Source: Candidatus Ozemobacteraceae bacterium
GTDB lineage: Bacteria; Muiribacteriota; Ozemobacteria; Ozemobacterales; Ozemobacteraceae
Assembly (NCBI GenBank): GCA_965140445.1
Contig: OZ223236.1
Location: 3,714,498 to 3,778,497, forward strand
Length of the DNA stretch: 64,000 nt
Reading direction: 5' to 3'
Position numbers and translations under genes: made by a program. The notes beneath the pieces were generated by a model, which ran no database searches, had not been told where the DNA came from, and saw only the letters and a program-made list of their open reading frames with translations. Of the stretch, positions 4,564 through 55,311 are shown piece by piece (position 1 is the first letter of the stretch; each line of letters opens with the position of its first letter).

Positions 4564-4622
4564 AACAAGCTTATTTCGAAAAGTTTTTCGAACCTTCTGG
4601 TTTGTAGACAATTCGGATCCAT

Positions 4623-4657: not shown

Positions 4658-4674
4658 TGGATTTTTTTATTTGC

Positions 4675-5820: not shown

Positions 5821-6028
5821 GAGAAACCTCTCAGAAATTAATAATTGTAATGTTACCACACCGAGAATTTGAGTAACAAGACTACTTTACAATAAAAGAA
5901 TTTTCCCAGGCCAGATTTCCGCAAATTTGGTTGACTTAAATTGACTCAAAGTGCTATTAGAATAGTTACTCAGCCCATAGGAAAGGAATTTTGGGCAAAT
6001 TTTTAGAAAAGACTACAGGAGACACAAA

Positions 6029-7111: not shown

Positions 7112-7123
7112 TTTTCAAAATTT

Positions 7124-7152
7124 GAAGACCTGCGAAAGCAGGTCTTCTTTTG
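7124..7152 (+). terminator. Hairpin and T-run after serC (possible attenuating terminator).
   Basis: gaagacctgc-gaaa-gcaggtcttc followed by ttttg. Confidence 0.45.
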
Positions 7153-7180
7153 TAAAAAAGCATTTTTAAAGGAAGGGAAT

Positions 7181-8107: not shown

Positions 8108-8125
8108 GAATTAGTTAAGTTAAAA

Positions 8126-8161
8126 CAAAAAAATGCCACTAATTTAGTGGCATTTTTTTTT
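8126..8161 (+). terminator. Rho-independent terminator after serA.
   Basis: atgccact-aattt-agtggcat followed by T9. Confidence 0.6.
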
Positions 8162-8180
8162 ATGCAGTTTTTTGTTATTT

Positions 8181-13934: not shown

Positions 13935-13935
13935 A

Positions 13936-15453: not shown

Positions 15454-15454
15454 T

Positions 15455-16894
15455 ATGGCAGGAATTGGATTTAGACTTCAAAGACTTGTTGACCACGGGT
15501 CCTATACTTTTAGTTTGCGTGGATTTCTTTTCGCAACTTTTCTTGTTGCCGGCCCCTGGATTACCACGATTGCAGTAATCAGTATTTTTTCAAACTTCAC
15601 TCACCTTGGCGGACTTGATTACGACATTTTTAGAACCTCAATTATTTATTTTTATGCCTTTTCTCTTATTTTAACAGGCCTCTATCAAATGCCTCTCACT
15701 CGCTACCTAGCAGATGAGTTGTTTGCTGAACGCCTTGAATCTCTAGTTTCATCCTATCTTGGAATGATAGTCTTCGTTTCTATTACTCAAGGGGTTTTTG
15801 CAGCAATTTACGCCAGTTTTATTCCCCTATCGCTTTTATACAAAACCCTTTTTGTAACAGGTTCTGTTACAGTGGCTCTTCTGTGGCTGGCTGGCATTTT
15901 TTTAAGCTGCTTACGCGATTTTGAATATATTGGCTGGATCTATATTTTTGGTGGGTTAATAAGTCTTGCTGCTGGAATCCATCTTGAGCCCTATTTTGGC
16001 ATGGAAGGCACCTTAGCCGGCTTTATCACTGGCCAGCTTCTTACCTGGTTGGGTATTTCCTGGAGAATTTGCGTTGAATTGGGCGAAGGAAAAATGCAGA
16101 CCAGCTTTGAGTGCCTAAATTCGCTCAAAAACTACAAACTTCATCTTATAACTGGCCTTTCATACAACCTCGCAATATGGCTGGACAAATTCATCTTTTG
16201 GTTCTCAGATATTGGCTCAGAAGCAGTAAAAGGCTTACACTATTTTCAAAACTATGACGTGCCAATTTTTCTTGCCTATGTTTTCGTTATTCCCGGATTA
16301 GGAATTTTCCTAACTAGAGTAGAAACTGATTTTTATAGAACTTACAGGGCTTTTTATGGGGCTATTCTTGAGAAAAAACCTCTCAAAATGATCATTGCCA
16401 AATATAAGGATATTAAATCTACGATTGATCTAACTACCTGGGAACTAATAAGAATCCAGGGAGCAATAGCAGCCATAATATATATTTTTGCCCCAGAACT
16501 GCTTCGCCTAATCCACTATTCAACAGATTTTACAAGCGTCCTGCGCTGGGGAATTCTGGCGGCCTTTTTTCAGGTTCTTTTCCTGGTCTATTCTCTACTT
16601 TTGCTTTACTTTGAATTCCGTTGTGAAGCTACAGCATGCAATCTAATGTTTTTATTCATAAACGTTATTTTTACTTATCTTACTGTCGCATACAGAATGG
16701 AATGGGCCTACGGAGCCGGCTACTTTTTGTCAACTTGTATTGCCGCGCTGTCTGCGAGATTTATCCTCTATCACCGATTAAAAAAGCTTATTTTTTACAC
16801 TTTTATGACCCAGAAAATGCCTGGAGAAATAAATTCTTCTTTGCTTGAACTGGACATGCAAGTGCGTGGAAACACCCTTTTTAAGGAAGAATAA
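15455..16894 (+). CDS. pelG: PelG polysaccharide exporter-like polytopic membrane protein.
   Basis: 479 aa with ~12 hydrophobic segments. N-terminus MAGIGFRLQRL, the characteristic PelG-family start. 1-nt gap to pelF. Confidence 0.75.
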   Translation: MAGIGFRLQRLVDHGSYTFSLRGFLFATFLVAGPWITTIAVISIFSNFTHLGGLDYDIFRTSIIYFYAFSLILTGLYQMPLTRYLADELFAERLESLVSSYLGMIVFVSITQGVFAAIYASFIPLSLLYKTLFVTGSVTVALLWLAGIFLSCLRDFEYIGWIYIFGGLISLAAGIHLEPYFGMEGTLAGFITGQLLTWLGISWRICVELGEGKMQTSFECLNSLKNYKLHLITGLSYNLAIWLDKFIFWFSDIGSEAVKGLHYFQNYDVPIFLAYVFVIPGLGIFLTRVETDFYRTYRAFYGAILEKKPLKMIIAKYKDIKSTIDLTTWELIRIQGAIAAIIYIFAPELLRLIHYSTDFTSVLRWGILAAFFQVLFLVYSLLLLYFEFRCEATACNLMFLFINVIFTYLTVAYRMEWAYGAGYFLSTCIAALSARFILYHRLKKLIFYTFMTQKMPGEINSSLLELDMQVRGNTLFKEE

Positions 16895-16895
16895 G

Positions 16896-18746
16896 ATGAA
16901 ATTTTTTTTAAAAAAAGTTCTGTTTCTTTATTTTATTCTGGTTATTTCGACAGCTTTTTGTGAAGCCAGGACACAGCAATTTCTCATGATTGAAGACAGT
17001 GAATCAGAAGCTTCCAAAACCATATCATATAACTTAAAAAAAACCATGGCCGACGCGAGCCTGGCAACGCGAGCAATAGACAAAAAAGAGCTCCTGGATT
17101 TTTCCTTTGAAATGGTATCTGAGTTTTCCGGAATTGTATTTACCAGCGACAGCAGTTCCGACTATCTATATGGTCCAGATGCAATAAGGTTTGTGGAAGA
17201 AGGCGGAACAATGGTTTTTGCCCACCATTCATATCCAGAAGACTACATTGAAAAATTTGGGATTAAACCTGTCACAACTATAGCCAACCTATGGAATTCT
17301 GCTAAAGGAATAAAATCGGTTAAACCTGTATTCAGAGAAACCAGGTTTGAGTTAGCTACAGGAAGCTTTACAACTGGCTGCATGAACATTTCCTTTTCTA
17401 AAGAATGGGAGCAACTCTTGAGTTTTGCTGAACCGGATATTCCTTTGCTTGCAACAAGAAAATTTGGCAATGGCAGTGTCGTATACTGGAACTCATCATG
17501 TTTAAGCTCTAAACTTTATCGTGGGATTTTTCTGTTTTCATTATTAAAATCACTACCAGTCTCGGCGATGAGTGTTCACAATGCTTTTTTAATGCACCTT
17601 GATGACTCTCCTCCACCTGCTTATGGAATAATGGAAGGGCCAGTTGCCCGAGATCTGGGGATGAAGGATTACGACTTTCATAAAAGAGTATGGGTTAAGC
17701 AGGTTTTTCCTATTCTTGATTCGTATAAGCTAGCGCTGACACATTTCTTAACCTTCACCTATGATGGCAAAATTCAAGGTCCGTTTCAAAAAAAGTCGGA
17801 CAGAGAACCTTTTTTTTCAGATTATTTGAAATTACTTCGTGAAAGAGGAGACGACTTTGGATTTCATGGTTACAATCATCAATCTTTAACTATGGGAAAA
17901 AGTCCATCCACACCCTGGACAAGTAGAAAAGAAATGGCTGATTCGGTCAGAACTGGTTATCAGCTTTGGAATGAAATGGGCTTGCCGCCGACACTTGCCT
18001 ATGTCCCACCAAACAATGTGATTGATGAAACAGGGAAACTGGTTATTTCTGAGGAATTTCCATCCATCAGGGTTATTTGCAGGGTTTACAACGATGGTGA
18101 TGAATATTATTCAAGAAATTCATCTGGCTTTTTAGCAGGAATTGGAAAAGTTAACAACGAAGCCATGAAAAAGATTCTAAGTCTTTATGCGAGCAGGCGT
18201 GCTATGACATCACCAAAAGCCAGAGAATTCTTTAGAGGTGATGAATATGGGGTTGACCCAGAAAACCCCAAATTTCTTAACCTGCCCCGTCTTTCAAGCG
18301 GACACTTCTTAACTGAATTTGAACAGGCTTTCATTCTTAATGGAATAATGGCACATGGGATCGCTGTCCATTTCTTTCATCCTGATGACATTTATGATCC
18401 TTCCAGACGTGAAAAAAGCTGGGAATACACCTTAGCCGCATTAAAGCGTTTACTCATATTTTTTAATAAAAACTTCGATTTTGCCAGGAAAATTCATACT
18501 TCCAGTTTTTTAACGGACTTTAAAAAATATGTCTTTGGAAATGCAGAAATTCAAATTGAGAATAGCAATTTGTTAAAAATTAAAACTGATGGTCGAAGAT
18601 TCTTTTACCTTTTTTGTGGGAACAATAAATCTGTAGAACCACTTATTGAAGGTGGAAAAATTCTTTCAAAAGTAGATGAGAACGTTTATTTAATTGAATT
18701 GTCTGGCAAAGAAGCCAGCGTAGAGTTCCAGCGAAAAATGAATTAA
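16896..18746 (+). CDS. Secreted PelA-like polysaccharide deacetylase (CE4-like) protein, paralog 1.
   Basis: Start moved to the ATG at 16896 (MKFFLKKVLFLYFILVISTAFCEA signal peptide; RBS AAGGAAG); the track start at 16845 overlaps pelG. CE4-like motifs: LMHLDDSPP (DD metal/acid motif) and FHGYNHQSL (HxxxH). ~60% identical to 19629-21473. Confidence 0.55.
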   Translation: MKFFLKKVLFLYFILVISTAFCEARTQQFLMIEDSESEASKTISYNLKKTMADASLATRAIDKKELLDFSFEMVSEFSGIVFTSDSSSDYLYGPDAIRFVEEGGTMVFAHHSYPEDYIEKFGIKPVTTIANLWNSAKGIKSVKPVFRETRFELATGSFTTGCMNISFSKEWEQLLSFAEPDIPLLATRKFGNGSVVYWNSSCLSSKLYRGIFLFSLLKSLPVSAMSVHNAFLMHLDDSPPPAYGIMEGPVARDLGMKDYDFHKRVWVKQVFPILDSYKLALTHFLTFTYDGKIQGPFQKKSDREPFFSDYLKLLRERGDDFGFHGYNHQSLTMGKSPSTPWTSRKEMADSVRTGYQLWNEMGLPPTLAYVPPNNVIDETGKLVISEEFPSIRVICRVYNDGDEYYSRNSSGFLAGIGKVNNEAMKKILSLYASRRAMTSPKAREFFRGDEYGVDPENPKFLNLPRLSSGHFLTEFEQAFILNGIMAHGIAVHFFHPDDIYDPSRREKSWEYTLAALKRLLIFFNKNFDFARKIHTSSFLTDFKKYVFGNAEIQIENSNLLKIKTDGRRFFYLFCGNNKSVEPLIEGGKILSKVDENVYLIELSGKEASVEFQRKMN

Positions 18747-45445: not shown

Positions 45446-46645
45446 ATGCGATATAGATTTTTTATGCTATCAGCGCTGCTCTCAATGCTTTTTTTCTCAG
45501 CAACTTTATCTGCCAATCCTTTTTCAGAGGAAGAAATTTTCGTTCCGGTGAATGTTCAGATTGAACAACCAGCATCCGAAATAGAATCAGCTCAAGTAGC
45601 TTCTTTTACCACAATTGAAACGCTTGTCGCCTCCGATTCATTGTCTTTGTGGAAAGATCTTCAAAAACTCTATGGAACCCTGGGAAAACGTACAGGCAAA
45701 CAAAACACCCACAGCGACAGCGAAAACGCCGTAGAACACCATTTAGATGGGTATGACAACTTAGATATTGATATTGATGGTGATAACTACTGCGGACAAT
45801 TTGCAATGAGCACGCTGCTAAACGGCATGGGAATTGAAACTGACCCGCAAAAAGTTTATCAGGAATCCAACCCGGCTGGCATTTTCACCGCGCCACCTAC
45901 AATTGTAGAATATTTGCGTATGAACGGCATAAAAGCCAAAATGAAAAACCAGGCCTCGGTTAACGATATAGTTAAACGTATTGATGATGGAAAACCTGTT
46001 ATGGTTCTTGTTGATTCAGGCGATGGCATCCCCCACTGGATTTGTATTACTGGTTATGACACCGATGATAAAGGCAATGTAACATCTGTTAGGATGCGTG
46101 ATTCATACTGGGGAACCAGAGGTCCACACACAATGAGCATCAGCGACTTTGAAAAAGCATGGAAATCACCATTTGGCAGTGGAACCCTTAGCAGTCTTGT
46201 AAGCTATTCAAATCTACTGATTGATAATTATGGAACTTATCCACCAAACTCAACCCCTCCAATTTATCCGGGCACATTTGACACTGCAACCGAAGACAAT
46301 ATGGCATCAGGTATTAACGATGTGGTTAATGGCTGGAAAAACCACTCAGTATCCAAAGTTATCGGTGGTGCTTCCAAATTACTTCTGGGTCTTCCAGGAG
46401 CAATTGGCGGCGTAGCTTCTAATTTTGCAGATAAAACAAGTCAGAATTGGATGGAATGGGGCCGAAATAAGATGGGTGAAAACGGTCTTGGAAACAAGAT
46501 CCTTGGCGGCGCAGCTTTTGCAGGCGGAGCAATAACTAATACCGTAGCCAAAGCAGGAAAAGCAGTCTCCAACCTTTGGTCCAGCCAGGTTTCAATCATT
46601 GGAAATGGTATTAAAAAGCTTGGTTCTCTTTTTTCAAGAAACTAA
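45446..46645 (+). CDS. Secreted Peptidase_C39_2-like (papain-fold) domain protein with glycine-rich C-terminal tail.
   Basis: Signal peptide MRYRFFMLSALLSMLFFSATLSANPF. Catalytic Cys context DNYCGQFAMSTLLNGMGI. His context IPHWICITGYD. The last ~110 aa are a G/A/N-rich low-complexity tail (GGASKLLLGLPGAIGGVASN...GGAAFAGGAITN). Confidence 0.5.
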   Translation: MRYRFFMLSALLSMLFFSATLSANPFSEEEIFVPVNVQIEQPASEIESAQVASFTTIETLVASDSLSLWKDLQKLYGTLGKRTGKQNTHSDSENAVEHHLDGYDNLDIDIDGDNYCGQFAMSTLLNGMGIETDPQKVYQESNPAGIFTAPPTIVEYLRMNGIKAKMKNQASVNDIVKRIDDGKPVMVLVDSGDGIPHWICITGYDTDDKGNVTSVRMRDSYWGTRGPHTMSISDFEKAWKSPFGSGTLSSLVSYSNLLIDNYGTYPPNSTPPIYPGTFDTATEDNMASGINDVVNGWKNHSVSKVIGGASKLLLGLPGAIGGVASNFADKTSQNWMEWGRNKMGENGLGNKILGGAAFAGGAITNTVAKAGKAVSNLWSSQVSIIGNGIKKLGSLFSRN

Positions 46646-46660
46646 CCTATTTATCATATA

Positions 46661-46706
46661 AAACAATGCCCCCCGATCCGCAATTGGATCGGGGGGCATT
46701 GTTTTT
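46661..46706. terminator. Bidirectional rho-independent terminator.
   Basis: aatgccccccgatccg-caat-tggatcggggggcatt followed by gttttt. Confidence 0.6.
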
Positions 46707-46730: not shown

Positions 46731-46910
46731 TTAACCATTAATTTCTTCCAGTATTTCCAGAATATCATCATTGCATTGCCCGCATACGGTTGAAGCCTCT
46801 GTCACTTCTCCAACTTCCTTGACGGTTTTTAACGATTTCTCTTTAATCGCCTTAACAATTTCACTTTTATAAATGCCCTTACAAATGCAAACCAATTTAT
46901 CCTCTTCCAT
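46731..46910 (-). CDS. Bfd-like [2Fe-2S]-binding domain protein, 59 aa; absent from the ORF track.
   Basis: MEEDKLVCICKGIYKSEIVKAIKEKSLKTVKEVGEVTEASTVCGQCNDDILEILEEING. CxC...CxxC spacing matches the Bfd-like domain. GGAGG RBS (rc of 46916-46920), 5 nt before the ATG. Confidence 0.55.
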   Translation of the reverse strand: MEEDKLVCICKGIYKSEIVKAIKEKSLKTVKEVGEVTEASTVCGQCNDDILEILEEING

Positions 46911-47014: not shown

Positions 47015-50000
47015 TTAATTTCCTATGCAATACCCCTTTAATCTTGCCAGAAGATTAACTTTATTCATTTGCTCTATTGAGTTTACTGAAGTGCTGAAAA
47101 GGTCTGGATTACCAACAATTATCGCCAGGGCCTGAGCTCTTGAAATTGCCACATTAATTCTATTTTTATCAAAGATAAAATCAATGCCTCTGGGTGATTC
47201 TGAAGGATCACTTGTGCATAAACTGAAAAAGACTACAGGCGCTTCCTGTCCCTGAAATTTGTCCACGCTTCCAACCTTGGCGAATTCGCCAAGAGCTAAT
47301 TTTAGCTTATTCACCTGATGGTTGTAGGGAGCAACAAAAAGCATATCATTCCAATCTATAGCTTTCTCGGCACCATGTTTATCAACATAAATTCGACCAA
47401 GAAGCTCATTGGCTTTTTTAGCAATTAACTCCGCTTCTTCATCACTGGCCTGAGTATTTCCCTCATGTTCAACTGGAATAAAAATGATCCCGGCAGACCT
47501 GTCCAGCTCTCCAACATATCCTTCTGGAACCTGAATTTTCTGTTGATCATTTTCTGGTGAGGATTTTAACTTTCCTTCATATATAGCTTCACTAATATAA
47601 TCATTTACAGAAGAATGCATTCTGTAGGTTGTGCCCAGAAAAACACCCATATTATCTGGAATAATTGGTGATTCGTGCAAAAGGAAATCCAGGATTGATA
47701 ATCCGCTATCTTCAGGATGAATGCCTTGTGATGGCTGGCCAAGTTGCATTTGGTCACCCATTAAAACCAGATTTTCAGCAGAACGACTCATACCAACCAG
47801 ATTTGCAACAGCAACCTGCCCGGCTTCATCAATAAACAAGTAATCAAACTGCTTTTCCCAATCAGTTCTACAGAAACCCCAGGCCGTAGTTCCAACAACA
47901 CAACCGTCCTGCAGCTGCCCAAGAATATCTGCATTCTTCAGAACCGAGATTCCATTTTCCTCAATTTCCGGCCCGGTATTTTTGGAACAAATACATTGAG
48001 CCGATATATTGTTTTCCCTACAATGCCGAGCAACACCAATAAGAAGATTATTAATCGCTTTATGGCTATTACTTGAAATCCCAATTCTTTTCCCGAGACT
48101 AACAAGTTCAGCAATTATGTGCTTCCCGGTGTAGGTTTTGCCAGAACCGGGCGGCCCCTGAATGGTCAGATAACTGTTGTCTAAATTTACGACAGCTGAA
48201 ACAATTTCCTTCAATCTATCAGAAGGATTTTCGCAATTTACAACTGGTTTTTGAGAATCAATTCGACCCTTGATACGAGGGGGATTTCGATGCAAAAAGT
48301 CACCAATTGCAGTGCCCTCGAATTTACCAAATTCATAATCCGTTACCACCGCGTCTATTGATTGTGGGATAGGATCGGGCCTGATGTATTCATCTGGGAT
48401 TAAAGTTAAAATCTGGGGAAGGTCAGAACCAGAAGTTACTACAAGTTTTCCCTTTGAAAGGTCACTTTCCTCATCTAACAACGCCGCCCTTAAAAAGTTT
48501 CCCTTACTGTCCTCTTCTCCTACCACATAATAGTTTTTTGCGTTTGCCTTGAACTCCTGCTCCGGATTAAATTTGTATTCATAGGCAAGGTTTCGTGACC
48601 TGGGTTTAGGCTTAAAAGGTTCCCTTGAAGTTCTTATGCAACCTGCAAGACAATCAATATCATTAACAAGTTCTTCAACTTCAAGACCGATTCTATCAAA
48701 TAATCTCCAGAAAACCGGCTTTGCTTCGCGACGATGGAATTCCAATGTCCAGGCAAGGTTTTCAGAAATCCGTGCTTTAGTTCTATCTTCTTTTGAAGCT
48801 CTTTCAAGAAGTTTATCGCGAAGCTTTGTGCGATTAGTAACCTCTTCAGGGAGTTCAGGCTCCTCGGTTTCCACTTTTCCAATAAACTGGATTCCATTAC
48901 TTTGCTGCTGTTCTCTTAACCATAAAACTAATTCCTGTGTAGAGTTACAATCATCAATATTGTAGTCTCTTATATCCTTTAAAACCTTTGAGGTTTGCCA
49001 GGTGTCGCCGTCTAAACCATTTCTGGAATTTTCACGCCACTCTTCATAAACCACAACAGAATCACCACCACAACCAACTTCGGTTTCTCTCTTGCCTCGG
49101 TAGAGGTGTTCCACATTTTTAATTGAATATCTTGGCTCACCGACCAGCAATGCACCTTTAACGACTTTATACAAATCCACAAAAACTTCGTTTCTGAGTA
49201 ACTGATCAACCTCAAATTCACAAACTCCATATCTGCTCATAAGCTTTCTACAAGCAGCTATCTCATAATTTGCATAATGATATATGTGCATAGTTCTATC
49301 TTTTTCCCAGAGTCCATAAACCCATGCAATAAATTCTTGAAAAGCCTTTTTTTCCTGTATTCTGTCGTGAGCCCAGAAATCCTTAAATTGTCTGTTTCCA
49401 TTCTCATCAACAAAAGTGCATCCCCATAAGTATTCCAATCCCCCATCATCCAATGGAAATCCCTCAATATCAAAAAACACATCATTGTCCGAATGCGGGG
49501 GAAGTAATGCCAAACCAATCTTTCTACCTTCCGGGTGGTCCTTAACTTCAAACAGAGGCGGAATTCTGCCTGCGCTTCTCTTCTGGATGGATGCCTGAGC
49601 CTTAATATTATCAAAGGTTGCCATGCTCAACCCGGAAATGCGTTGTACGTTTGAACTGATTAAAGCTTCACATGTATATATGCCGGCTTGATTAAGCTTT
49701 TTCACATTGGATCGGGTAATATTTGCGATTTGCGACAGGTGATCCCTTTCCTGTAATATTTTCTCTGCGTAGGTTCCCCATGCACCAAAGCTTCTCGAAT
49801 CGTATGGGTCCGGCATTTCTTTCGGATTAAAATTACTTTGCTCGTGCAGAAATCTTTCTTTTAAGGCCAGGTAATAAAAAAAGTAATCGTCAGTTTTTAA
49901 CTTCTCAATATCGCCTCTGCCAAGAGCTAAAGTTATTGTTTTTGGTCTGGAACCCTGAACGGACTCCAAAATGTCAGAATAGCAACAAAGCTGAGTAACA

Positions 50001-50449
50001 AACTCAGGTCTGGCTCTTGATGCAAGTTTTGTATCAATTACCTCATACAAATAATCTCCAAAACGACTGGAACCTGGCACCTTAATAAGAAAATCGGCAA
50101 ATCCACGAAATGAAAATGCTTCAAGAACTCCCTGAAAAATTATATCAACTCCACTTTCCATGGCACTCAGGGTTTTAAGCAGTCGCTGCTCAACCTTTTG
50201 TTCGCTGGATTCCCCATCGCCTGACAAATCTGCAATGGTTTTCCCTTGTTCCTCAAATTCCTTTAATAATTTTTTCTCCAGATCCAATCCTTTTTTTGCC
50301 AGTAAACCTGACAAATCATCAGCTGGATCAGCTTGTGGAACTAAATCCGGATGCTCCATTCGTAACCGATTCATCCAACTCGCAAAAGGGCTTACCATGA
50401 AAGTTGTTAAATCAGTTGGAGAGTATACAATCTCATTTCTTTTAAACAT
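47015..50449 (-). CDS. Fusion of a TM0106-family RecB-like PD-(D/E)XK nuclease, an RNase-H-like domain and an SF1B (Upf1/Dna2-like, AAA_11/AAA_12) helicase.
   Basis: Track ORF starts at a TTG (50536). The ATG at 50449 has the RBS GGGGAAAAA-ATG, giving 1144 aa. Nuclease motifs GFADFLIKV and YEVIDTKLASRARPEFVTQLCCYSD (D...E-x-K). Central region YLWGCTFVDENG...MHIYHYANYE. Helicase motifs: Walker A GPPGSGKT, motif II FIDEAGQV, GDQMQL, TYRMHSSV and VDKFQGQEAPVVFFSL. Confidence 0.75.
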   Translation of the reverse strand: MFKRNEIVYSPTDLTTFMVSPFASWMNRLRMEHPDLVPQADPADDLSGLLAKKGLDLEKKLLKEFEEQGKTIADLSGDGESSEQKVEQRLLKTLSAMESGVDIIFQGVLEAFSFRGFADFLIKVPGSSRFGDYLYEVIDTKLASRARPEFVTQLCCYSDILESVQGSRPKTITLALGRGDIEKLKTDDYFFYYLALKERFLHEQSNFNPKEMPDPYDSRSFGAWGTYAEKILQERDHLSQIANITRSNVKKLNQAGIYTCEALISSNVQRISGLSMATFDNIKAQASIQKRSAGRIPPLFEVKDHPEGRKIGLALLPPHSDNDVFFDIEGFPLDDGGLEYLWGCTFVDENGNRQFKDFWAHDRIQEKKAFQEFIAWVYGLWEKDRTMHIYHYANYEIAACRKLMSRYGVCEFEVDQLLRNEVFVDLYKVVKGALLVGEPRYSIKNVEHLYRGKRETEVGCGGDSVVVYEEWRENSRNGLDGDTWQTSKVLKDIRDYNIDDCNSTQELVLWLREQQQSNGIQFIGKVETEEPELPEEVTNRTKLRDKLLERASKEDRTKARISENLAWTLEFHRREAKPVFWRLFDRIGLEVEELVNDIDCLAGCIRTSREPFKPKPRSRNLAYEYKFNPEQEFKANAKNYYVVGEEDSKGNFLRAALLDEESDLSKGKLVVTSGSDLPQILTLIPDEYIRPDPIPQSIDAVVTDYEFGKFEGTAIGDFLHRNPPRIKGRIDSQKPVVNCENPSDRLKEIVSAVVNLDNSYLTIQGPPGSGKTYTGKHIIAELVSLGKRIGISSNSHKAINNLLIGVARHCRENNISAQCICSKNTGPEIEENGISVLKNADILGQLQDGCVVGTTAWGFCRTDWEKQFDYLFIDEAGQVAVANLVGMSRSAENLVLMGDQMQLGQPSQGIHPEDSGLSILDFLLHESPIIPDNMGVFLGTTYRMHSSVNDYISEAIYEGKLKSSPENDQQKIQVPEGYVGELDRSAGIIFIPVEHEGNTQASDEEAELIAKKANELLGRIYVDKHGAEKAIDWNDMLFVAPYNHQVNKLKLALGEFAKVGSVDKFQGQEAPVVFFSLCTSDPSESPRGIDFIFDKNRINVAISRAQALAIIVGNPDLFSTSVNSIEQMNKVNLLARLKGYCIGN

Positions 50450-50756
50450 TTTTTCCCCGCATCTTGCAAATAAATGTGCATAACCTATATGCGTCCGAAG
50501 ATCCCAGTTTATACATTTAAATATAGGATTCTTCAAAAGTTATTGTGCTCTTAACTTAACTTTTTATCAAGAGTGAAAAGAATAATACACTTTTAAATAT
50601 CCATTATTACTAAATCGCTAATATTAATGATGCATGGAATCATTTATTAACACGATGTGTTATACTTGAGATGTTGGAACTTTATGGTTCTGGTATTGGG
50701 ACTCCTTGAACAACCAGCATCTGAAATTGCAATAATTGAGAAACTTAGGAGCCAAT

Positions 50757-50918
50757 ATGGAAGGCAAAACAGGAACCAGAGTAGTATTACCAGGAATTTA
50801 CAAATGCAAAGAGCACCCGGAAGCCAATAAGACTTTTACAAAGGGCGCAGTATTCACCCCTTGTTCAAGAGCAGGCAGTCATGGAACAACCTGGGTATTA
50901 GTAAGAAAAACCGGTTAA
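50757..50918 (+). CDS. Small hypothetical protein (53 aa) with two Cys and several His.
   Basis: AGGAG (50746-50750) sits 6 nt before the ATG at 50757. Sequence MEGKTGTRVVLPGIYKCKEHPEANKTFTKGAVFTPCSRAGSHGTTWVLVRKTG. Followed by a palindrome and a terminator. The track models it from an upstream TTG. Confidence 0.35.
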   Translation: MEGKTGTRVVLPGIYKCKEHPEANKTFTKGAVFTPCSRAGSHGTTWVLVRKTG

Positions 50919-51004: not shown

Positions 51005-51673
51005 CTAGAAAGGCTGGGCTTTAACGTATAAATTCTTTTTTAAAGTTTCAACAAGGGGTCTTTTAATCGAAACATTTGCTGGCGGGCGAAGTATAAACGA
51101 CATATTTAACATTGCCCCGGAAACCTCTTCATCAGAAGGATCTATTGCACCTTCAAGAACGTATTCATACCCTGTTTTTTTTGAGTAAACCACTGTTTTG
51201 GCTTCAACCTCTACCCTATCAACATCTGTTAGTTCAACAGATTGAGGCAATAGCTTATAATCTGGTGGATTCCCGGCAATTTTAGTTCGTGAATATGTTA
51301 ATTTCCGGTTTTTAAGAATCAAAGAGCATAGAATCTGATATTCAATACTGCCATCATCGTTGAAATGATTTCTGGTAAATTCCAGAAGCTCTGGTCCCAG
51401 TCCGTTAGAATTGTAGCTTAGTGGGCAATCGTCTATGGTTGGCAATGGATCACCTGCAACAACCTGAATTCGCCTTGATGCCTCACCCAAATCATCTTTC
51501 AAAAGCTTGATAAGGTATTGTAACTTTCGGGAATGCTCCTGTTTCCAAGCCGAAATCATATAGACTCTACTACTGGAACTTTGCAGACGATAGATTACCA
51601 GCATAACCAAAACCATCAGGCTAACCCCGATGAGTAACTCTACCACGGTAAAAGCTTTATTGTAACGTTTCAC
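51005..51673 (-). CDS. Pilin/pseudopilin-like protein with atypical prepilin N-terminus (AFTVVELLIG).
   Basis: 222 aa. MKRYNKAFTVVELLIGVSLMVLVMLVIYRL has a class III signal-like N-terminus with Ala instead of the usual Gly at -1 and a conserved Glu at +5. Confidence 0.5.
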   Translation of the reverse strand: MKRYNKAFTVVELLIGVSLMVLVMLVIYRLQSSSSRVYMISAWKQEHSRKLQYLIKLLKDDLGEASRRIQVVAGDPLPTIDDCPLSYNSNGLGPELLEFTRNHFNDDGSIEYQILCSLILKNRKLTYSRTKIAGNPPDYKLLPQSVELTDVDRVEVEAKTVVYSKKTGYEYVLEGAIDPSDEEVSGAMLNMSFILRPPANVSIKRPLVETLKKNLYVKAQPF

Positions 51674-52218
51674 AATGAATACCTGTCGATCTGCACCAGC
51701 TCTTCATACTTTCTCATTGTATCTTTGTAACGAACATCTATTTTTATCCTTAAAAAGTCTCTTTCATATCCACCAACGCTTTTTTTAATTAGATTGCAGC
51801 CCCTGACCCATGCTGAATAATTATTTTTCCCAGAATCGGGCAAACTATCTATATAAACAGTCCCCAGGCCTTTTAAATCAGTATGTTCCAGTGGAATATT
51901 CAAGCTATCCAATTTGCAGAAATCCATATACCAGCTGTTAATAAATATGTCTGCCCCCTGCACTGCTTTTCCGGCAACAAGTTCTTTGTGATAAGCATCT
52001 GTCTTATAAAAGGCTGAGGGCAAAAGCTTCAATTTAAAGAGTAACAGTTGAGCAAGCCCCTTCGCTACCCAATCTGCCTTTCGATGCTGGTCAATCTGGG
52101 TTAGGCTTTTTTTCTGGCTGTTGTAACGCAAAAACAAAGTAGAACTTAATGACGCAAACAGCGCACCAAAAATAATCACCATAATCAAAGCTCCACCATT
52201 TTTATTCAGTTTAATCAT
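51670..52218 (-). CDS. Minor pseudopilin-like protein (GspK/PilX-like, lacks Glu+5).
   Basis: 182 aa. N-terminus KNGGALIMVIIFGALFASLSSTLFL. Overlaps its neighbours by 4 nt. Confidence 0.35.
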   Translation of the reverse strand: MIKLNKNGGALIMVIIFGALFASLSSTLFLRYNSQKKSLTQIDQHRKADWVAKGLAQLLLFKLKLLPSAFYKTDAYHKELVAGKAVQGADIFINSWYMDFCKLDSLNIPLEHTDLKGLGTVYIDSLPDSGKNNYSAWVRGCNLIKKSVGGYERDFLRIKIDVRYKDTMRKYEELVQIDRYSL

Positions 52219-52219
52219 T

Positions 52220-52804
52220 TCAAGTTCCCAAATCTGCTATACAGGTAGATAGAATAAACTTTCTTTCTGATTTTCCTTGAATACATGTAACCGTAGCCCA
52301 AATTGTAAAAATTTCTTCAGTGGTAGTGTATTTTGCAGTAAAGGTTGAAACACTGGCTCCAATGCCACCTTTGTAACCACATTTCCCATAATTAAAAATG
52401 GTGGAAACCCCATCTGCCTCACCCGCGATCCTTTTTAACTCCACCTTTATAAAATAATCAGCATTACTGCCCTGATGATTTAATTTAACTCCTTTGAAGG
52501 AAGGCTTTTCGGTTCCAACTGGCAAATCAAAAGTTCTGGAAACTGCTTCGCCGGGAAATTTAATATCCATCTTCACAACCTGATTTGAAGAAAAAGCATC
52601 AGAAAGAGTGGTAAATCTGGTCGTTTTTATTGTGTTTAATGCTGAATCTGCAAGGTTTAATGCAAAACCTTCATCCATTTGTCGATTAGTTAAGCCATAG
52701 GATTTTATTAAAACATCAAGGGTTGGCAAAAGCGTTATCCCTGCTATCAGAATGGCTACAAGAATTTCAATAAGTGTAAATCCAGAATTACCCTGAGAAG
52801 CCAA
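52220..52804 (-). CDS. Type IV pilin / T2SS pseudopilin-like protein with canonical prepilin leader.
   Basis: 194 aa. MASQGNSGFTLIEILVAILIAGITLL is the canonical G-FTLIE N-methylation motif. Confidence 0.75.
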   Translation of the reverse strand: MASQGNSGFTLIEILVAILIAGITLLPTLDVLIKSYGLTNRQMDEGFALNLADSALNTIKTTRFTTLSDAFSSNQVVKMDIKFPGEAVSRTFDLPVGTEKPSFKGVKLNHQGSNADYFIKVELKRIAGEADGVSTIFNYGKCGYKGGIGASVSTFTAKYTTTEEIFTIWATVTCIQGKSERKFILSTCIADLGT

Positions 52805-52807
52805 TTT

Positions 52808-55231
52808 CTACCTCATATGCCTTTGTTCAAGCGTTCTTATTCGAGCTTTCTGATCCCTAATCTGAAAAAATAGACGTAGGGTTCGCGAATTACCCGCCAC
52901 ATCCTTTGCTATTACAGTTATAGAAGGATTATTATTGCTTAATGAAATTAGATCCGGAACTGAGCTACCATCGAACAGCTTCGAACTGGGATCACGGAAA
53001 ACAATTTTGTAAGGACCATGCAAACAGCTATTCCAGGCTTCAGTTGAAGAAATTGTCGGCTCAAATTCTGTGCTAGAACCGTTTTTACAACTAATCTTAA
53101 GCTCTTTTATCCCACTCCCCGGAGTGGAGTTGTAAGAATCTACAACAGCCTCAGGCATCCTTCCGCCCTCATTTGCAACATATCTTGAATTATCTTGAGT
53201 CCAGACACGTATCTCGTATTCCACATCTTCTTCAAGTGGAAAAACATTAAAAACATCCAGACTCTCGCCAAAGCCCAAGCGCTTTCTCAAAGAATCTGCA
53301 TTGCTTACATCCTGATTTAATTTTCCTGTTGTTTTTACCGTATCGCTTTCACCATAGTCTTCAAGTGAAAAAAGCTTCCGGAAGAATGAATTTTTCTGAT
53401 CTGCCCCAGAGGTTACCAACCCTTTAACAGTATTATCTGAACCAGCAAAAATTGCACTTCGGTTTTCTGAATCTCCTCCGGTTTCGCCCATTCTAATCTC
53501 GATGGGCATAAAGTAAACCGAATCTGTGGCGATAAACTCCTGATAATCAAAAAGCAACCCGGCAGTAAAATCCTGAAATTCACTTTTATTCCACATCCAG
53601 GATGGCACTGCTTTTTCAGGGGGTGGGAAACAAATATTATATTTTAAACTACTATCGCTTTTTGCCTTCTGCTTATCTTTCAGATTTACCACACTTATCA
53701 TAATGTTTGGACGGTCGTTGTCATAAAGTCTTATATAGCCCGTTTCTTGCGGTAAGTATGGACTTTCAACAGCTCTGTCTGTAGGAGGCAAATCTCCTGG
53801 AGCCATAAATGGAAACGGTTTGGCGGTAGGAGGATCAGTTAAAAGATCATCTCCGTATTTATAATTATGCCTTTTTCCAGATCCTGGTGCACAGACTCCG
53901 TAGCAATTCCATGGCTCATTATCTGCTACAAAGGAATCACTGGGATTCAGATTGTTTGAGCCATCCCATGCGTAGATTGAATATTCCATCGTTCCATGAA
54001 AGTGAGACGGCAATTGAATAGGATTTGGTGCAAGTCCTCTGCCAGACTTAGAAACATAGGTTTCATTTGCGAACTTACTAAATCGAAACTTCCCGTCACT
54101 GGAATTTTTTGCATCAAAGGTCCACGAAGCTGGCGCCAGTGCTATATTACAAGCAATACTATTGGCCCAAATGTTTTCATCGTAAAACTTAAGAGATAAT
54201 CTGCGAAAATCTCCTGTTGTGTTTCTAATTACTGAAACTCCATCCGTAGCATCTGCTGTTGGTAAATAACCATCTGTTGACTGAGTGTAGGTAGTAAAAT
54301 CCCTTATCTCCGGTGGAGTTCTATCGAGCCAATGTATCTGACCACCATTAGCTATATAATTGCTTGCGACGATTTCTTTATTCGCATCCCAACTTTTTCC
54401 CGAATGCATTATTGAGGTGGGTGAAAAAGAAACAAGGTATTCAACACGGGTGTTACTTCTGTTATGGCAACAGTATGTTCTGGTGTATGTGCTTCCATCA
54501 GAACGATGATATGTCCTGGTGTAACTATCACCATCACAAACGCATCTATGGCAATTAAAACTTGATTTACTACTTTCAACAAGATTCTGCCACTCTGATC
54601 CGGTAGTATACCACCAATCACTTCCAGAACCTAAATGAACGCTATAAACCTGCATCCCCGGATGGTCTGAAGTTGGCTCCAATTTGTATTCGGCACCAGC
54701 TCTTTCGATTCCCATGTAAGAATACATACAAAATGCAGTATCGCTATGACTATGTCCAACTCTGCCGCATCCAGAACAAGGCCAATTGTACAATGAATTC
54801 CAATCAGATTGGGAGCCGGAAAAATCAGCTGGCATCGCAGGTGGCTTTGAATGAATCCCATCACAAATTTCTATAAAAGACCCATCTCCCGGGTCCTTAA
54901 AAATATAGATTATTTGATTGCTGGAATATTTTTTCTTGAGACTATTTAACTGGGATTCGGTTAAATGACTTTTTGAGACATGAGCAGCAAAACTGCTATA
55001 TGAAACGACTTTTGCACCAGAAAGGAATAATTTCATAGGTATTTTTTCCACGTCCTCAAAAGTATCAATTCTCCAAGGTTGAGGAGTTTGGGAAAAATGA
55101 CCATTAAAATCAAAATATAAATGATTAAAAATCAGATTCTCAAGTGCTTTCTCGCTAGAAATGGCAGAAAAAGCTGCAATAGTATGAGAAAAAAGAAAAA
55201 ACAAAACGAGATAAGCTGTGACTCTTTTCAA
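52808..55231 (-). CDS. Large secreted Cys-rich protein encoded first in the pilin operon (candidate pilus tip/adhesin-type protein).
   Basis: 807 aa. Signal peptide MKRVTAYLVLFFLFSHTIAAFSA. Cys-rich block CSGCGRVGHSHSDTAFC...CHRCVCDGDSYTRTYHRSDGSTYTRTYCCHN with YTRTY repeated. No prepilin motif. 3-nt gap to the downstream pilin gene. Confidence 0.45.
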   Translation of the reverse strand: MKRVTAYLVLFFLFSHTIAAFSAISSEKALENLIFNHLYFDFNGHFSQTPQPWRIDTFEDVEKIPMKLFLSGAKVVSYSSFAAHVSKSHLTESQLNSLKKKYSSNQIIYIFKDPGDGSFIEICDGIHSKPPAMPADFSGSQSDWNSLYNWPCSGCGRVGHSHSDTAFCMYSYMGIERAGAEYKLEPTSDHPGMQVYSVHLGSGSDWWYTTGSEWQNLVESSKSSFNCHRCVCDGDSYTRTYHRSDGSTYTRTYCCHNRSNTRVEYLVSFSPTSIMHSGKSWDANKEIVASNYIANGGQIHWLDRTPPEIRDFTTYTQSTDGYLPTADATDGVSVIRNTTGDFRRLSLKFYDENIWANSIACNIALAPASWTFDAKNSSDGKFRFSKFANETYVSKSGRGLAPNPIQLPSHFHGTMEYSIYAWDGSNNLNPSDSFVADNEPWNCYGVCAPGSGKRHNYKYGDDLLTDPPTAKPFPFMAPGDLPPTDRAVESPYLPQETGYIRLYDNDRPNIMISVVNLKDKQKAKSDSSLKYNICFPPPEKAVPSWMWNKSEFQDFTAGLLFDYQEFIATDSVYFMPIEIRMGETGGDSENRSAIFAGSDNTVKGLVTSGADQKNSFFRKLFSLEDYGESDTVKTTGKLNQDVSNADSLRKRLGFGESLDVFNVFPLEEDVEYEIRVWTQDNSRYVANEGGRMPEAVVDSYNSTPGSGIKELKISCKNGSSTEFEPTISSTEAWNSCLHGPYKIVFRDPSSKLFDGSSVPDLISLSNNNPSITVIAKDVAGNSRTLRLFFQIRDQKARIRTLEQRHMR

Positions 55232-55311
55232 TTTAATTACTCCCGCTTCTTATAATGGCGATGCATACGAGAATAAAATTGAAAAAGTAACGCCGATTTA
55301 AAACTGTTAGA

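What the first reader, a model, noticed from the sequence alone, without database searches (positions are those of the whole stretch)
47015..50449. Monocistronic 1144-aa RecB-like nuclease + RNase-H-like + SF1B helicase fusion
A single gene combines a TM0106-family PD-(D/E)XK nuclease (YEVIDTKLASRARPEFVTQLCCYSD), an RNase-H-like central domain and a complete Upf1/Dna2-like SF1B helicase (GPPGSGKT, DEAGQ, GDQMQL, VDKFQGQE). It is bracketed by a terminator on one side and a 220-bp AT-rich promoter region on the other, with no partner genes. Nuclease-helicase single-protein architectures of this kind include Dna2-like repair enzymes and recently described single-gene anti-phage systems such as Nhi. 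A defence or specialised end-processing role is plausible. The ORF-track start is a TTG; an ATG 29 codons in has a strong RBS.
Basis: partly seen in the sequence, partly recalled or inferred. Interest (0 to 1): 0.6.

Follow-up and report, generated by a model that had tools for sequence, protein, structure and literature searches.

The report
Dna2-like nuclease–exonuclease–helicase, likely defence gene
This is an intact gene for one large protein that joins a DNA-cutting domain, a DNA-trimming domain and a DNA-unwinding motor; it belongs to a widespread, unstudied family that in other bacteria usually sits among anti-virus defence genes and on plasmids, so it is a good but unproven candidate for a one-protein defence enzyme.

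Summary
The ORF is real: window 47015-50449 on the minus strand, 1144 aa from the ATG. Homolog alignment supports that ATG over the upstream TTG.

It has three domains, and the catalytic residues of each are at least 98% conserved across 131 diverse relatives:
- a Cas4/Dna2-type PD-(D/E)XK nuclease;
- a PolB/MrfB-type DEDD 3'-5' exonuclease fold;
- a Upf1/Dna2-type SF1B helicase.

Mouse Dna2 is the best full-length structural match. Unlike Dna2, Bad and Cas4, this clade has lost all four iron-staple cysteines (S20, R219, G222, A228). A third of the wider family keeps them.

"Monocistronic, no partners" is only partly right. A 59-aa Bfd-like ferredoxin ORF lies 104 bp downstream, before the only strong terminator. 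It is not conserved next to homologs.

The window's own neighbourhood is housekeeping. The family as a whole behaves differently:
- it is taxonomically patchy and shares no conserved synteny;
- full-length copies occur on 59 plasmids and on no phage;
- some copies are interrupted by IS elements;
- copies repeatedly sit beside BREX, type I R-M, McrBC, GmrSD, AbiE, HerA and SIR2 genes, and directly downstream of WYL/BrxR regulators.

It is not Nhi or Mokosh, and I found no paper naming it. Best reading: a mobile Dna2/Bad-like DNA-end degrading enzyme, probably anti-phage or anti-plasmid. The main rival is accessory DNA repair.

The parts
47015..50449 (-). Coding sequence of the 1144-aa nuclease-exonuclease-helicase. 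ATG at 50449, stop codon at 47015-47017.
   Evidence: ORF listed. Start supported by alignment with 115 homologs. AF2 model has pLDDT 88.7 and pTM 0.82.
50534..50536 (-). Alternative upstream TTG start (1173-aa version), used in the public gene call. Probably not the true start.
   Evidence: P0275. Homologs begin at the ATG position. The promoter-like -10 element ends at 50542.
49745..50449 (-). aa 1-235: Cas4/RecB/Dna2-type PD-(D/E)XK nuclease domain. Motifs E58, D119, D139-x-K141 and Q153xxxY157. The iron-staple cysteines are replaced by S20, R219, G222 and A228.
49565..49732 (-). aa 240-295: small helical module, possibly helix-hairpin-helix DNA-binding.
   Evidence: Helices 246-254, 260-265 and 276-292 in the model. 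Only a weak match to the Dmc1 N-terminal region, aa 243-287, E 0.085. Tentative.
48899..49492 (-). aa 320-517: RNase-H-fold DEDD-type 3'-5' exonuclease-like domain. Key residues D327, E329, H391, Y392, E396, Y496 and D500.
48380..48850 (-). aa 534-690: helical stalk (aa 534-595) plus a six-stranded beta-barrel (aa 600-685) linking the nucleases to the motor, as in Dna2 and Upf1.
   Evidence: Secondary structure of the models. Dna2 5EAN is the only solved structure whose Foldseek alignment runs ~1,230 columns, the length of the protein.
47018..48217 (-). aa 745-1144: SF1B (Upf1/Dna2/IGHMBP2-like) helicase core. Walker A G768-T772 (K771), DEAGQ 874-878, GDQ 898-900, QGxE 1066-1069, R1097 and R1104.
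   Evidence: AAA_11, AAA_12 and AAA_30. PDB sequence matches to IGHMBP2, Upf1 and Dna2. Foldseek. Conservation.
50450..50735 (.). AT-rich (31% GC) divergent intergenic region. Contains a sigma-70-like TTGATA-17-CACAAT at 50570-50542 on the minus strand.
   Evidence: Consensus match only, not shown to be functional.
46731..46910 (-). 59-aa Bfd-like [2Fe-2S] ferredoxin ORF, 104 bp downstream on the same strand, with a GGAGG ribosome-binding site. Possibly co-transcribed. Not a conserved partner.
   Evidence: PF04324, E 5e-15. Absent next to homologs.
46660..46705 (.). Strong intrinsic-terminator hairpin flanked by an A-run and a U-run. Probably bidirectional, ending both this transcription unit and the convergent C39-peptidase gene.
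   Evidence: 20-nt perfect inverted repeat. Fold -40.9 kcal/mol, z -6.4.

Best explanation
The gene encodes a catalytically intact, single-polypeptide DNA-processing machine of the Dna2/Bad type.

Inferred mechanism, by analogy with Dna2 and Geobacillus Bad:
- The C-terminal SF1B motor loads on a 5' single-stranded tail, flap or DNA end and moves 5'->3'.
- It feeds that strand through the N-terminal Cas4-type PD-(D/E)XK endonuclease, which sits ahead of the motor.
- The extra central DEDD-type 3'-5' exonuclease domain, which Dna2 lacks, trims the complementary 3'-ended strand.
- Both strands of a DNA with a free end would therefore be destroyed.

The family behaves as a horizontally mobile accessory gene. 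Its most likely biological role is stand-alone immunity against invading linear or replicating DNA (phage or plasmid), often under a WYL/BrxR-type regulator. In this genome it is a solitary copy with its own promoter, inserted among housekeeping genes.

Shown here: the ORF, the domain folds, the intact active sites, loss of the Fe-S ligands, the family's distribution and its gene neighbourhoods.

Inferred, not shown: helicase polarity, DNA rather than RNA as substrate, the division of labour between the two nucleases, and the defence role itself.
For: Architecture and active sites:
- Domain hits above threshold.
- AF2 model pLDDT 88.7.
- Best full-length structural match is Dna2 5EAN, E 2e-26.
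- All three catalytic motif sets are invariant in 115 close homologs and at least 98% conserved in 131 distant ones.

Accessory and mobile character:
- More than 150 clusters (at 50% identity) of full-length relatives, in patchy taxa.
- No conserved neighbour.
- 59 plasmids carry full-length copies, 27 of the 79 matching records are conjugative, and no phage carries one.
- Copies are interrupted by IS110 (L026) and by IS5.

Defence association:
- Pooled scans of 127 non-redundant neighbours are topped by GmrSD, Eco57I/type IIG, type I R, McrBC, AbiEii, BrxC/D and WYL.
- Individual loci sit next to BREX-1 plus a Ppl-like TrlF ATPase, type I R-M, McrBC, GmrSD, AbiE, a HerA pair, SIR2 plus an ATPase and PLD plus SNF2.
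- A WYL/BrxR regulator lies directly upstream in five independent loci: L030, L039, L054, L058 and L060. BrxR-family regulators are known to co-localise with defence islands (PMC9122601).

Biochemical precedent:
- Bad is a 5'-3' helicase and ssDNA endonuclease that prefers 5' overhangs. It sits next to a type III-like methyltransferase, and its authors proposed a restriction role (PMC7430649).
Against: - In this window there is no defence or mobile gene within about 10 kb. The neighbours are Hsp33, an S9 peptidase, ExoIII, a Bfd-like ferredoxin, pseudopilins, ETF and EF-G. There is no tRNA and there are no flanking repeats.
- GC content matches the genome: 40.4% against 38.8%.
- The two nearest homologs, at 67% identity (L040, L041), also lack obvious defence neighbours.
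- No member matched any full-length PADLOC model, and NCBIfam gives only the generic family name.
- No phenotype exists for any member.
- WYL regulators also control DNA-damage responses (DriD, PafBC; PMC9122601). Alphaproteobacterial plasmid copies sit in clusters with SbcC/SbcD-like genes, which fits repair equally well.
- My neighbourhood tally has no formal genome-wide background control.
Confidence: 0.55

Rival explanations
1. Accessory DNA-repair or damage-response enzyme. In this reading it is a Dna2-like end-resection or flap- and crosslink-processing nuclease-helicase. It would be induced by WYL-type damage sensors, carried as cargo on plasmids and islands, and act on the host's own damaged DNA rather than on invaders.
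For: - Closest solved structures are repair and replication enzymes: Dna2; MrfB (mitomycin repair exonuclease), MGME1, Exo5 and AdnAB.
- WYL regulators include the damage-response activators DriD and PafBC (PMC9122601).
- Alphaproteobacterial plasmid copies sit in clusters with SbcD-like and SbcC-like genes.
- A metallophosphoesterase gene overlaps the start of the 67%-identical homolog.
- In the window the gene lies about 1.8 kb from xth (ExoIII), in a housekeeping region.
Against: - Distribution is patchy with no conserved synteny.
- Copies are repeatedly wedged between restriction, BREX, McrBC, GmrSD and Abi genes rather than repair genes.
- IS-disrupted copies are tolerated.
- xth is on the same strand but separated from the gene by the bfd-like ORF, a strong terminator and a convergent gene, so they are not co-transcribed.
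Confidence: 0.25
2. RNA-targeting surveillance enzyme. The Upf1-like motor would translocate on RNA and the nucleases degrade phage or aberrant transcripts, as proposed for the Mokosh MkoA/MkoC helicases.
For: - Best sequence matches of the helicase core are to RNA/DNA helicases: IGHMBP2, Upf1 and Sen1.
- The best PADLOC matches are MkoA and MkoC, E 5e-44 and 3.5e-22, covering the helicase part only.
Against: - Both nuclease folds are closest to DNA enzymes: Cas4, Dna2 and MGME1; PolB proofreading exonuclease and MrfB.
- The only full-length structural match is the DNA enzyme Dna2.
- There is no PLD domain and no Mokosh partner.
- The related enzyme Bad acts on DNA (PMC7430649).
Confidence: 0.07
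3. A selfish mobile-element function. It would serve plasmid or ICE maintenance, processing of the element's own transferred DNA, or exclusion of competing elements, rather than protecting the host from phage.
For: - Many copies are on plasmids and ICE-like islands: 59 full-length plasmid copies, and 27 of the 79 matching records are conjugative.
- Copies lie near T4SS, NikA and integrase genes.
- One BREX-adjacent cassette is about 100% identical across unrelated hosts.
Against: - The window copy, and many others, are chromosomal with no element genes nearby.
- On mobile elements the gene sits in the defence-cargo region, not in the transfer or replication modules.
- Anti-plasmid exclusion would in practice count as a form of defence.
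Confidence: 0.08

Closest known systems
TM0106 family RecB-like putative nuclease (TIGR03491 / COG2251) fused to tandem AAA_11/AAA_12 helicase domains
   Same: The protein is a member. TIGR03491 scores 230.6 bits against a cut-off of 97. The PF13482 and helicase domains are in the order that Majorek et al. 2014 (PMC3985635) catalogued for COG2251. More than 150 clusters of full-length relatives exist, and RefSeq annotates plasmid copies under this family name.
   Different: Nothing substantive. The family is a database category with no demonstrated function. The window's clade is the Fe-S-free branch of it.
Eukaryotic Dna2 and Geobacillus stearothermophilus Bad (bacterial DNA2-like helicase-nuclease; PMC7430649)
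   Same: - An N-terminal RecB/Cas4-type nuclease precedes a stalk and beta-barrel and a C-terminal SF1B helicase.
- Spacing from nuclease motif III to Walker A is similar to Bad: 632 aa here (D139 to K771) against 665 in Bad (D150 to K815).
- Like Bad, the family is sporadic and found next to restriction-type genes.
   Different: - There is no iron-staple 4Fe-4S cluster: S20, R219, G222 and A228 occupy the four Cys positions.
- An additional DEDD 3'-5' exonuclease domain is present, which Dna2 lacks. Bad's central domain was reported as having no detectable homology.
- Sequence relatedness to Bad itself could not be tested because its sequence was not retrievable with these tools.
Nhi (nuclease-helicase immunity, Staphylococcus epidermidis SERP2475; bioRxiv 10.1101/776245)
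   Same: The logic is the same: one polypeptide with an N-terminal PD-(D/E)XK nuclease plus an SF1 helicase, patchy and plasmid-borne, found near defence genes. Nhi is experimentally anti-phage.
   Different: Nhi is 606 aa, with an HsdR-like nuclease and a DUF2075 (PF09848) helicase. The protein here scores 13.8 bits on PF09848 against a cut-off of 24. It has a Cas4-type nuclease, a Upf1-type helicase and an extra exonuclease domain. It is an analogue, not a family member.
Mokosh MkoA / MkoC (Upf1-like helicase defence proteins)
   Same: The helicase core is related. PADLOC MkoA matches at E 5e-44 over aa 852-1130.
   Different: The match covers only part of the helicase. There is no PLD nuclease domain or partner, and the N-terminal two-thirds of the protein are unrelated.
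RecBCD / AddAB / AdnAB end-processing helicase-nucleases
   Different: Those enzymes are multi-subunit, use SF1A or mixed-polarity motors, place the nuclease at the C-terminal end behind the motor, and are Chi-regulated, conserved housekeeping genes. The protein here is a single chain with an SF1B motor, an N-terminal nuclease and a separate DEDD exonuclease, and it is an accessory gene.

Membership tests
TM0106 / COG2251 nuclease-helicase family | Whole-protein score above the curated TIGR03491 cut-off | tested here: met
   230.6 bits against 97.45, over aa 79-511.
TM0106 / COG2251 nuclease-helicase family | PD-(D/E)XK motifs (D, D/ExK, QxxxY) present | tested here: met
   D119, D139-T-K141 and Q153-x3-Y157. 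Invariant and at least 98% conserved.
TM0106 / COG2251 nuclease-helicase family | PF13482 RNase-H-like domain followed by tandem AAA_11/AAA_12 helicase domains | tested here: met
   PF13482 at 82.9 bits against 22; AAA_11 at 51.9 and AAA_12 at 95.9, both against 27. The architecture is described in PMC3985635.
Dna2 / Bad iron-staple nuclease-helicases | RecB-type nuclease N-terminal to an SF1B helicase, with a connecting barrel and stalk | tested here: met
   Foldseek top hit is Dna2 5EAN, E 2e-26, aligned over about 1230 columns. Secondary structure.
Dna2 / Bad iron-staple nuclease-helicases | Four conserved cysteines ligating a 4Fe-4S cluster: one N-terminal, plus CxxC-x5-C after motif IV | tested here: not met
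   The window has S20, R219, G222 and A228 at the four columns. Those columns are 98-100% Cys in 43 of 131 family representatives.
Dna2 / Bad iron-staple nuclease-helicases | Direct sequence homology to G. stearothermophilus Bad (WP_053413574), including its central domain | not tested
   The Bad sequence is not in the paper's text or supplement, and no tool could fetch it by accession.
Dna2 / Bad iron-staple nuclease-helicases | 5'-3' ssDNA translocation and unwinding, plus ssDNA endonuclease activity | not testable with these tools
   Requires biochemistry. Inferred only from SF1B membership.
Nhi | DUF2075 / PF09848 SF1 helicase core | tested here: not met
   PF09848 at 13.8 bits against a cut-off of 24. 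Nhi's definition is taken from 10.1101/776245.
Nhi | About 600-aa protein with an HsdR-like N-terminal nuclease | tested here: not met
   This protein is 1144 aa. Its nuclease is closest to Cas4 and Dna2.
Mokosh (MkoA/MkoC) | Full-length match to the MkoA or MkoC profile, plus a PLD nuclease domain or partner | tested here: not met
   The match is partial, aa 852-1130 only. There is no PLD in the protein or next to it.
Defence-island gene (operational definition) | Homologs recurrently adjacent to known defence genes in unrelated genomes | tested here: met
   Roughly 15-20 of about 30 independent contexts qualify. This is a hand tally with no formal background control.
Defence-island gene (operational definition) | This copy itself lies in a defence island or mobile element | tested here: not met
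   Neighbours within about 10 kb are housekeeping genes. There is no tRNA and no flanking repeats.
Defence-island gene (operational definition) | Experimental protection against phage or plasmid | not testable with these tools
   No phenotype was found in the literature searched.

The most novel reading that the evidence does not exclude
This large, architecture-stable family would be an unnamed single-protein immune effector, often regulated by WYL/BrxR. It would work as a one-polypeptide RecBCD/AddAB-like machine: an SF1B motor carrying two different nucleases, a Cas4-type endonuclease for the 5' strand and a proofreading-type exonuclease for the 3' strand, that shreds invading DNA from free ends. 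If so, it would also supply the missing physiological role for bacterial DNA2-like enzymes such as Bad. It would further show that the iron-staple cluster is dispensable, since it has been lost in the window's clade.
Probability: 0.4. Interest if true: 0.65.

Novelty: new variant of a known kind. Interest (0 to 1): 0.5.

Why it matters
Nuclease-helicase enzymes such as RecBCD, Gabija, Hachiman, Nhi and DdmD are a recurring solution for telling invader DNA from self DNA. This family is abundant: more than 150 clusters (at 50% identity) of full-length members, on chromosomes, islands and conjugative plasmids. It is highly conserved yet has no assigned function. It matched no full-length PADLOC model, and NCBI's 2026 models give it only the generic family name, not an anti-phage one.

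If it is a defence enzyme, it adds a compact single-gene system with an unusual dual-nuclease design. It would also answer the question left open in the Bad paper of what bacterial DNA2-like enzymes are for. Because one branch of the family keeps the Fe-S cluster and another lacks it, the family is a natural experiment on the role of the iron-staple cluster in Cas4/Dna2-type nucleases.

For this particular window the result is more modest: a well-preserved solitary copy in a housekeeping region.

Tried and rejected
1. Presence/absence polymorphism of the gene. On first reading, contig L057 seemed to lack the gene. BLAST showed the gene is present at 98% identity; its gene calls are only fragmented by assembly indels. 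What L057 lacks is the adjacent pseudopilin cluster.

2. A conserved metal site formed by C400, C410, C501, C600 and C604, possibly linked to the neighbouring Bfd-like ferredoxin. These cysteines are invariant only in the close subfamily. Across the wider family they become L, R or L, and the Bfd gene is not a conserved neighbour. Rejected.

3. Nhi membership. Rejected.

4. Mokosh, DpdJ, PLuB, ProA or Hhe membership. All matches are partial and cover only the helicase or P-loop region.

5. A conserved operon partner. All-against-all clustering of neighbours found none. The BREX-adjacent five-gene cassette is a single element copied at about 100% identity.

6. Retrieving the Bad sequence from the paper's supplement. 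Not present.

7. Literature searches for a published name for this architecture: TM0106, PF13482, COG2251, RecB-like plus anti-phage, Dna2-like plus anti-phage, Cas4-like plus SF1 helicase, and bacterial DNA2-like. They returned only the 2014 catalogue entry and the Bad biochemistry paper. The 'TrlF' search returned only spectroscopy papers.

8. Identifying the host organism. The genome is a 5.2-Mb contig held by NCBI and ENA, but no name was returned.

9. Mobile-element scars around the gene. No tRNA and no meaningful direct or inverted repeats were found.

Full report
**Observation**

It lies on the minus strand, with its stop at 47015 and possible starts at TTG 50536 (1173 aa) or ATG 50449 (1144 aa). 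All quoted motifs are present.

- In an alignment with 115 homologs, the N-termini coincide with the ATG (M1 conserved in at least 90%).
- A sigma-70-like TTGATA-17-CACAAT at 50570-50542 would start transcription about at the TTG. I therefore take the ATG as the start.
- The public gene call for this genome used the TTG.
- The motif before the ATG is GGGGA, a moderate rather than strong Shine-Dalgarno match.

Two details of the description need correcting.

- No terminator follows the stop codon. Downstream there is a 104-bp spacer, then a 59-aa ORF on the same strand with a GGAGG site. It is a Bfd-like [2Fe-2S] domain protein (PF04324, E 5e-15). Only then comes a very strong hairpin at 46660-46705 (20-bp perfect stem, -40.9 kcal/mol, z -6.4). 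That hairpin probably also terminates the convergent C39-peptidase gene.
- The AT-rich upstream stretch (30-31% GC) is a divergent intergenic region shared with a small plus-strand ORF at 50736-50918.

**Anatomy**

Sequence profiles give three modules.

- TIGR03491 (TM0106 family RecB-like nuclease) covers aa 79-511 at 230.6 bits against a cut-off of 97.
- PF13482 RNase_H_2 covers aa 324-511.
- AAA_11, AAA_12 and AAA_30 cover aa ~748-1115.

PDB sequence matches cover only the helicase: IGHMBP2, Upf1, Dna2 and Sen1.

An AlphaFold2 model built on the 115-sequence alignment is confident (pLDDT 88.7, pTM 0.82). Its layout is:

- aa 1-235: alpha/beta nuclease domain
- aa 240-295: a small helical module, possibly helix-hairpin-helix (only a weak Dmc1 N-terminal match)
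- aa 320-517: RNase-H fold
- aa 534-595: helical stalk
- aa 600-685: six-stranded barrel
- aa 745-1144: two RecA-like domains

Foldseek against the PDB puts mouse Dna2 (5EAN, 5EAX, 5EAW) first, at E 2e-26. Dna2 is the only entry whose alignment runs ~1,230 columns, about the length of the protein; the matches ranked next (IGHMBP2, Upf1, Sen1, ZNFX1, nsp13) align over only ~600-700 columns, which fits the helicase part.

**Active sites**

In the 115 close homologs (58-68% identity) the following residues are invariant:

- Nuclease: E58, D119, D139, K141, Q153, Y157.
- Exonuclease-like domain: D327, E329, H391, Y392, E396, Y496, D500.
- Helicase: G768, G770, K771, D874, E875, Q878, R943, R1097, R1104.

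In 131 far more diverse representatives (35-60% identity, from the exhaustive search) every one of these is still at least 98% conserved. All three activities are therefore under purifying selection and are intact in the window copy.

**Loss of the iron-staple**

Dna2, AddB, Cas4 and Bad nucleases carry a 4Fe-4S cluster held by one N-terminal Cys and a CxxC-x5-C after motif IV (PMC7430649).

- Forty-three of the 131 representatives, the more distant branch, have exactly this signature.
- In the window protein those four columns are S20, R219, G222 and A228.

So the family descends from iron-staple nucleases, and the window's clade has lost the cluster.

Other cysteines are invariant in the close subfamily (C400, C501, C600, C604). 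Most of them (C400, C410, C604) are not conserved family-wide, so I dropped the idea of a second metal site and of a link to the adjacent ferredoxin.

**Family size and distribution**

The word-indexed search returned more than 2600 hits. Full-length proteins at 58-68% identity come from Colwellia, Advenella, Acinetobacter, many Legionella and numerous metagenomes.

The exhaustive search gave 2083 representatives at E <= 1e-30. The best 150 are nearly all full length, at 1100-1160 aa.

In species-representative genomes the gene turns up in Alcaligenaceae, Psychrobacter, Cellvibrionales, Francisellaceae, Nitrosomonas, Rickettsiaceae, Caulobacterales, Latescibacterota, Oligoflexales and Chloroflexi MAGs. 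Identity is about 42-62% regardless of phylum.

Full-length copies lie on 59 plasmids; of the 79 plasmid records with any match, 27 are typed conjugative. No phage genome carries one. Some copies are interrupted by an IS110 element (L026) or an IS5 element (Picosynechococcus plasmid). This is the profile of a dispensable, horizontally moving gene.

**Neighbourhoods**

All-against-all clustering of ORFs around 36 loci found no neighbour shared beyond close relatives, with a maximum of 6 loci. The Bfd-like ORF is not a recurring partner.

I pooled 127 non-redundant neighbours (within three genes either side) and scanned them.

- The most recurrent Pfam families were GmrSD, Eco57I, ResIII, N6_Mtase, WYL, SWI2_SNF2, McrBC, type I R domains, AbiEii and BrxC/D.
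- The top PADLOC matches were type IIG and type I restriction enzymes, MADS, HEC-06 and Orf5.

Individually annotated contexts:

| Locus | Neighbouring genes |
|---|---|
| Colwellia MT41 | Integrase/excisionase island with BrxR, DUF4258, IS66 |
| L. pneumophila | hsdMSR plus DUF6119 directly upstream, on a NikA-bearing element |
| Vibrio tubiashii conjugative plasmid p123 | BREX-1 pglX-pglZ-brxL, SMEK, two hypotheticals, the gene, then an overlapping TrlF ATPase related to the anti-phage protein Ppl. About 100%-identical copies occur in Dasania and in two MAGs. |
| Piscirickettsia plasmid | DEAD helicase upstream; SIR2 plus ATPase downstream |
| L053 | ArdA, type I R-M, integrase |
| L054 | BrxR directly upstream; PLD plus SNF2 downstream |
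| L. gratiana | HerA pair |
| L052 | IS elements |
| L008 | AbiEii directly upstream |
| L027 and Acaryochloris plasmid | McrBC directly upstream |
| L023 | GmrSD directly upstream |

A WYL-domain regulator sits immediately upstream in five independent loci (L030, L039, L054, L058, L060) and close by in two more. BrxR-type WYL regulators are known to co-localise with defence systems and islands (PMC9122601).

Some contexts lack defence genes. These are the window, its two nearest homologs (L040, L041), and L004, L006, L014 and L025.

My hand tally is roughly 15-20 defence or mobile-element contexts out of about 30 independent ones. I did not compute a genome-wide background.

**The window itself**

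Within about 10 kb the genes are a SpoU methylase, a hybrid histidine kinase, Hsp33, an S9 peptidase, ExoIII, a C39-like peptidase, the Bfd-like ORF, the target gene, a small ORF, three pseudopilins plus an 807-aa protein, an FAD oxidase, ETF alpha and beta, and EF-G.

- There is no tRNA and there are no flanking repeats.
- GC content does not deviate: 40.4% against 38.8%.

So this copy is a solitary, apparently long-resident gene. The case for defence rests on the family, not on this locus.

**Mechanism (inferred)**

By analogy with Dna2 and Bad, the SF1B motor should move 5'->3' on ssDNA with the Cas4-type endonuclease ahead of it, cutting the translocated strand. Bad is a 5'-3' ssDNA motor and endonuclease that prefers 5' overhangs, and its helicase is auto-inhibited by its own nuclease (PMC7430649).

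The extra DEDD domain has an intact proofreading-type active site and is well suited to degrade the 3'-ended complementary strand. Together these would give a single-chain enzyme that destroys both strands from a free end or flap.

Free ends and replication intermediates are typical of phage and transferred plasmid DNA. That would give a crude discrimination between self and non-self, as argued for RecBCD, Gabija, Hachiman and Nhi.

DNA rather than RNA as substrate is favoured by both nuclease folds and by the full-length Dna2 match. It is not proven.

**Rivals**

- The strongest rival is an accessory DNA-repair or damage-response role. WYL regulators also drive damage responses (DriD, PafBC). 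Alphaproteobacterial plasmid copies cluster with SbcD-like and SbcC-like genes. The nearest structures are repair enzymes.
- An RNA-targeting role and a selfish mobile-element role are less likely.

**Comparison with known systems**

- The protein is a bona fide member of the TM0106/COG2251 nuclease-helicase family. That architecture was catalogued in 2014 with a predicted 3'-5' exonuclease activity (PMC3985635) but was never characterised.
- It works like, and descends from the same stock as, Dna2/Bad-type iron-staple nuclease-helicases. It fails their defining Fe-S feature and has an additional exonuclease domain.
- It is not Nhi (different nuclease, different helicase family, half the size).
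- It is not Mokosh (partial helicase match only).
- NCBIfam's 2026 models give it no anti-phage name.
- My literature searches found no paper assigning it a function. That is an absence within the searchable library, not proof of absence.

**Verdict**

The gene is an intact member of a large, mobile, uncharacterised Dna2-like nuclease-exonuclease-helicase family associated with defence islands. It is a new variant of a known kind of system. It is worth an experimental test, but it would not surprise a specialist. Interest 0.5.

Noticed in passing
window 51030-55284 (compare L057 5795-5834): A public contig 98% identical to the window (L057) lacks the block holding three N-methyl pseudopilin genes and the 807-aa ORF. 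Only a 51-nt fragment remains at the junction. This is either a presence/absence polymorphism or an assembly collapse, right next to the target gene's promoter region.
   Followed up: partly
window 46731-46910 (-) and 46660-46705: A 59-aa Bfd-like [2Fe-2S] ferredoxin ORF is followed by a perfect 20-bp hairpin flanked by an A-run and a T-run. The hairpin is probably a bidirectional terminator shared with the convergent C39-like peptidase gene (45446-46645, +).
   Followed up: yes
window 50736-50918 (+): A small divergent ORF (53 aa from the ATG at 50757; MEGKTGTRVVLPGIYKCKEHPEANKTF...) has no Pfam match. It shares the AT-rich intergenic region with the target gene.
   Followed up: partly
L003, L022, L031, L047, L050 (Vibrio tubiashii plasmid p123, 65.6-84 kb): A cassette is about 98-100% identical across a Vibrio conjugative plasmid, Dasania phycosphaerae and MAGs labelled Dehalococcoidia and Chloroflexi. 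It runs BREX-1 pglX-pglZ-brxL, SMEK, a 480-aa ORF, a 350-aa ORF with a faint NucS_C match, the TM0106-helicase, and a TrlF/Ppl-like ATPase. This is either a very promiscuous element or mis-binned MAG contigs.
   Followed up: partly
L058 (Sphingomonas pISP0) 5898-17258; L060 (Mesorhizobium pOM4) 958-10360: On alphaproteobacterial plasmids the Fe-S-branch homolog forms a recurring cluster. It has a divergent WYL regulator, an SbcD-like 'DNA repair exonuclease' and an SbcC-like AAA ATPase. In pISP0 there is also a very large DEAD/DEAH helicase. This may be a multi-gene system in its own right.
   Followed up: partly
L040 9051-10013 (closest long-contig homolog, 67% identity): A metallophosphoesterase (Metallophos) gene overlaps the start of the homolog by 13 nt, and a 4Fe-4S ferredoxin-like gene follows it. 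L054 also has a Metallophos gene nearby. This may be an association with an Mre11/SbcD-like partner in some lineages.
   Followed up: no
L026 1455-2501; Picosynechococcus plasmid NZ_CP014001.1 25836-30190: Homologs are interrupted by an IS110-family transposase (L026) and by an IS5 transposase (the plasmid). L009, L035 and L036 look frameshifted. Inactivated copies are tolerated.
   Followed up: partly
Family alignment columns matching window residues S20, R219, G222, A228: About one third of family representatives keep the Cas4/Dna2 iron-staple cysteines, and the rest have replaced all four. Within one family this gives a natural comparison of branches with and without the Fe-S cluster.
   Followed up: yes
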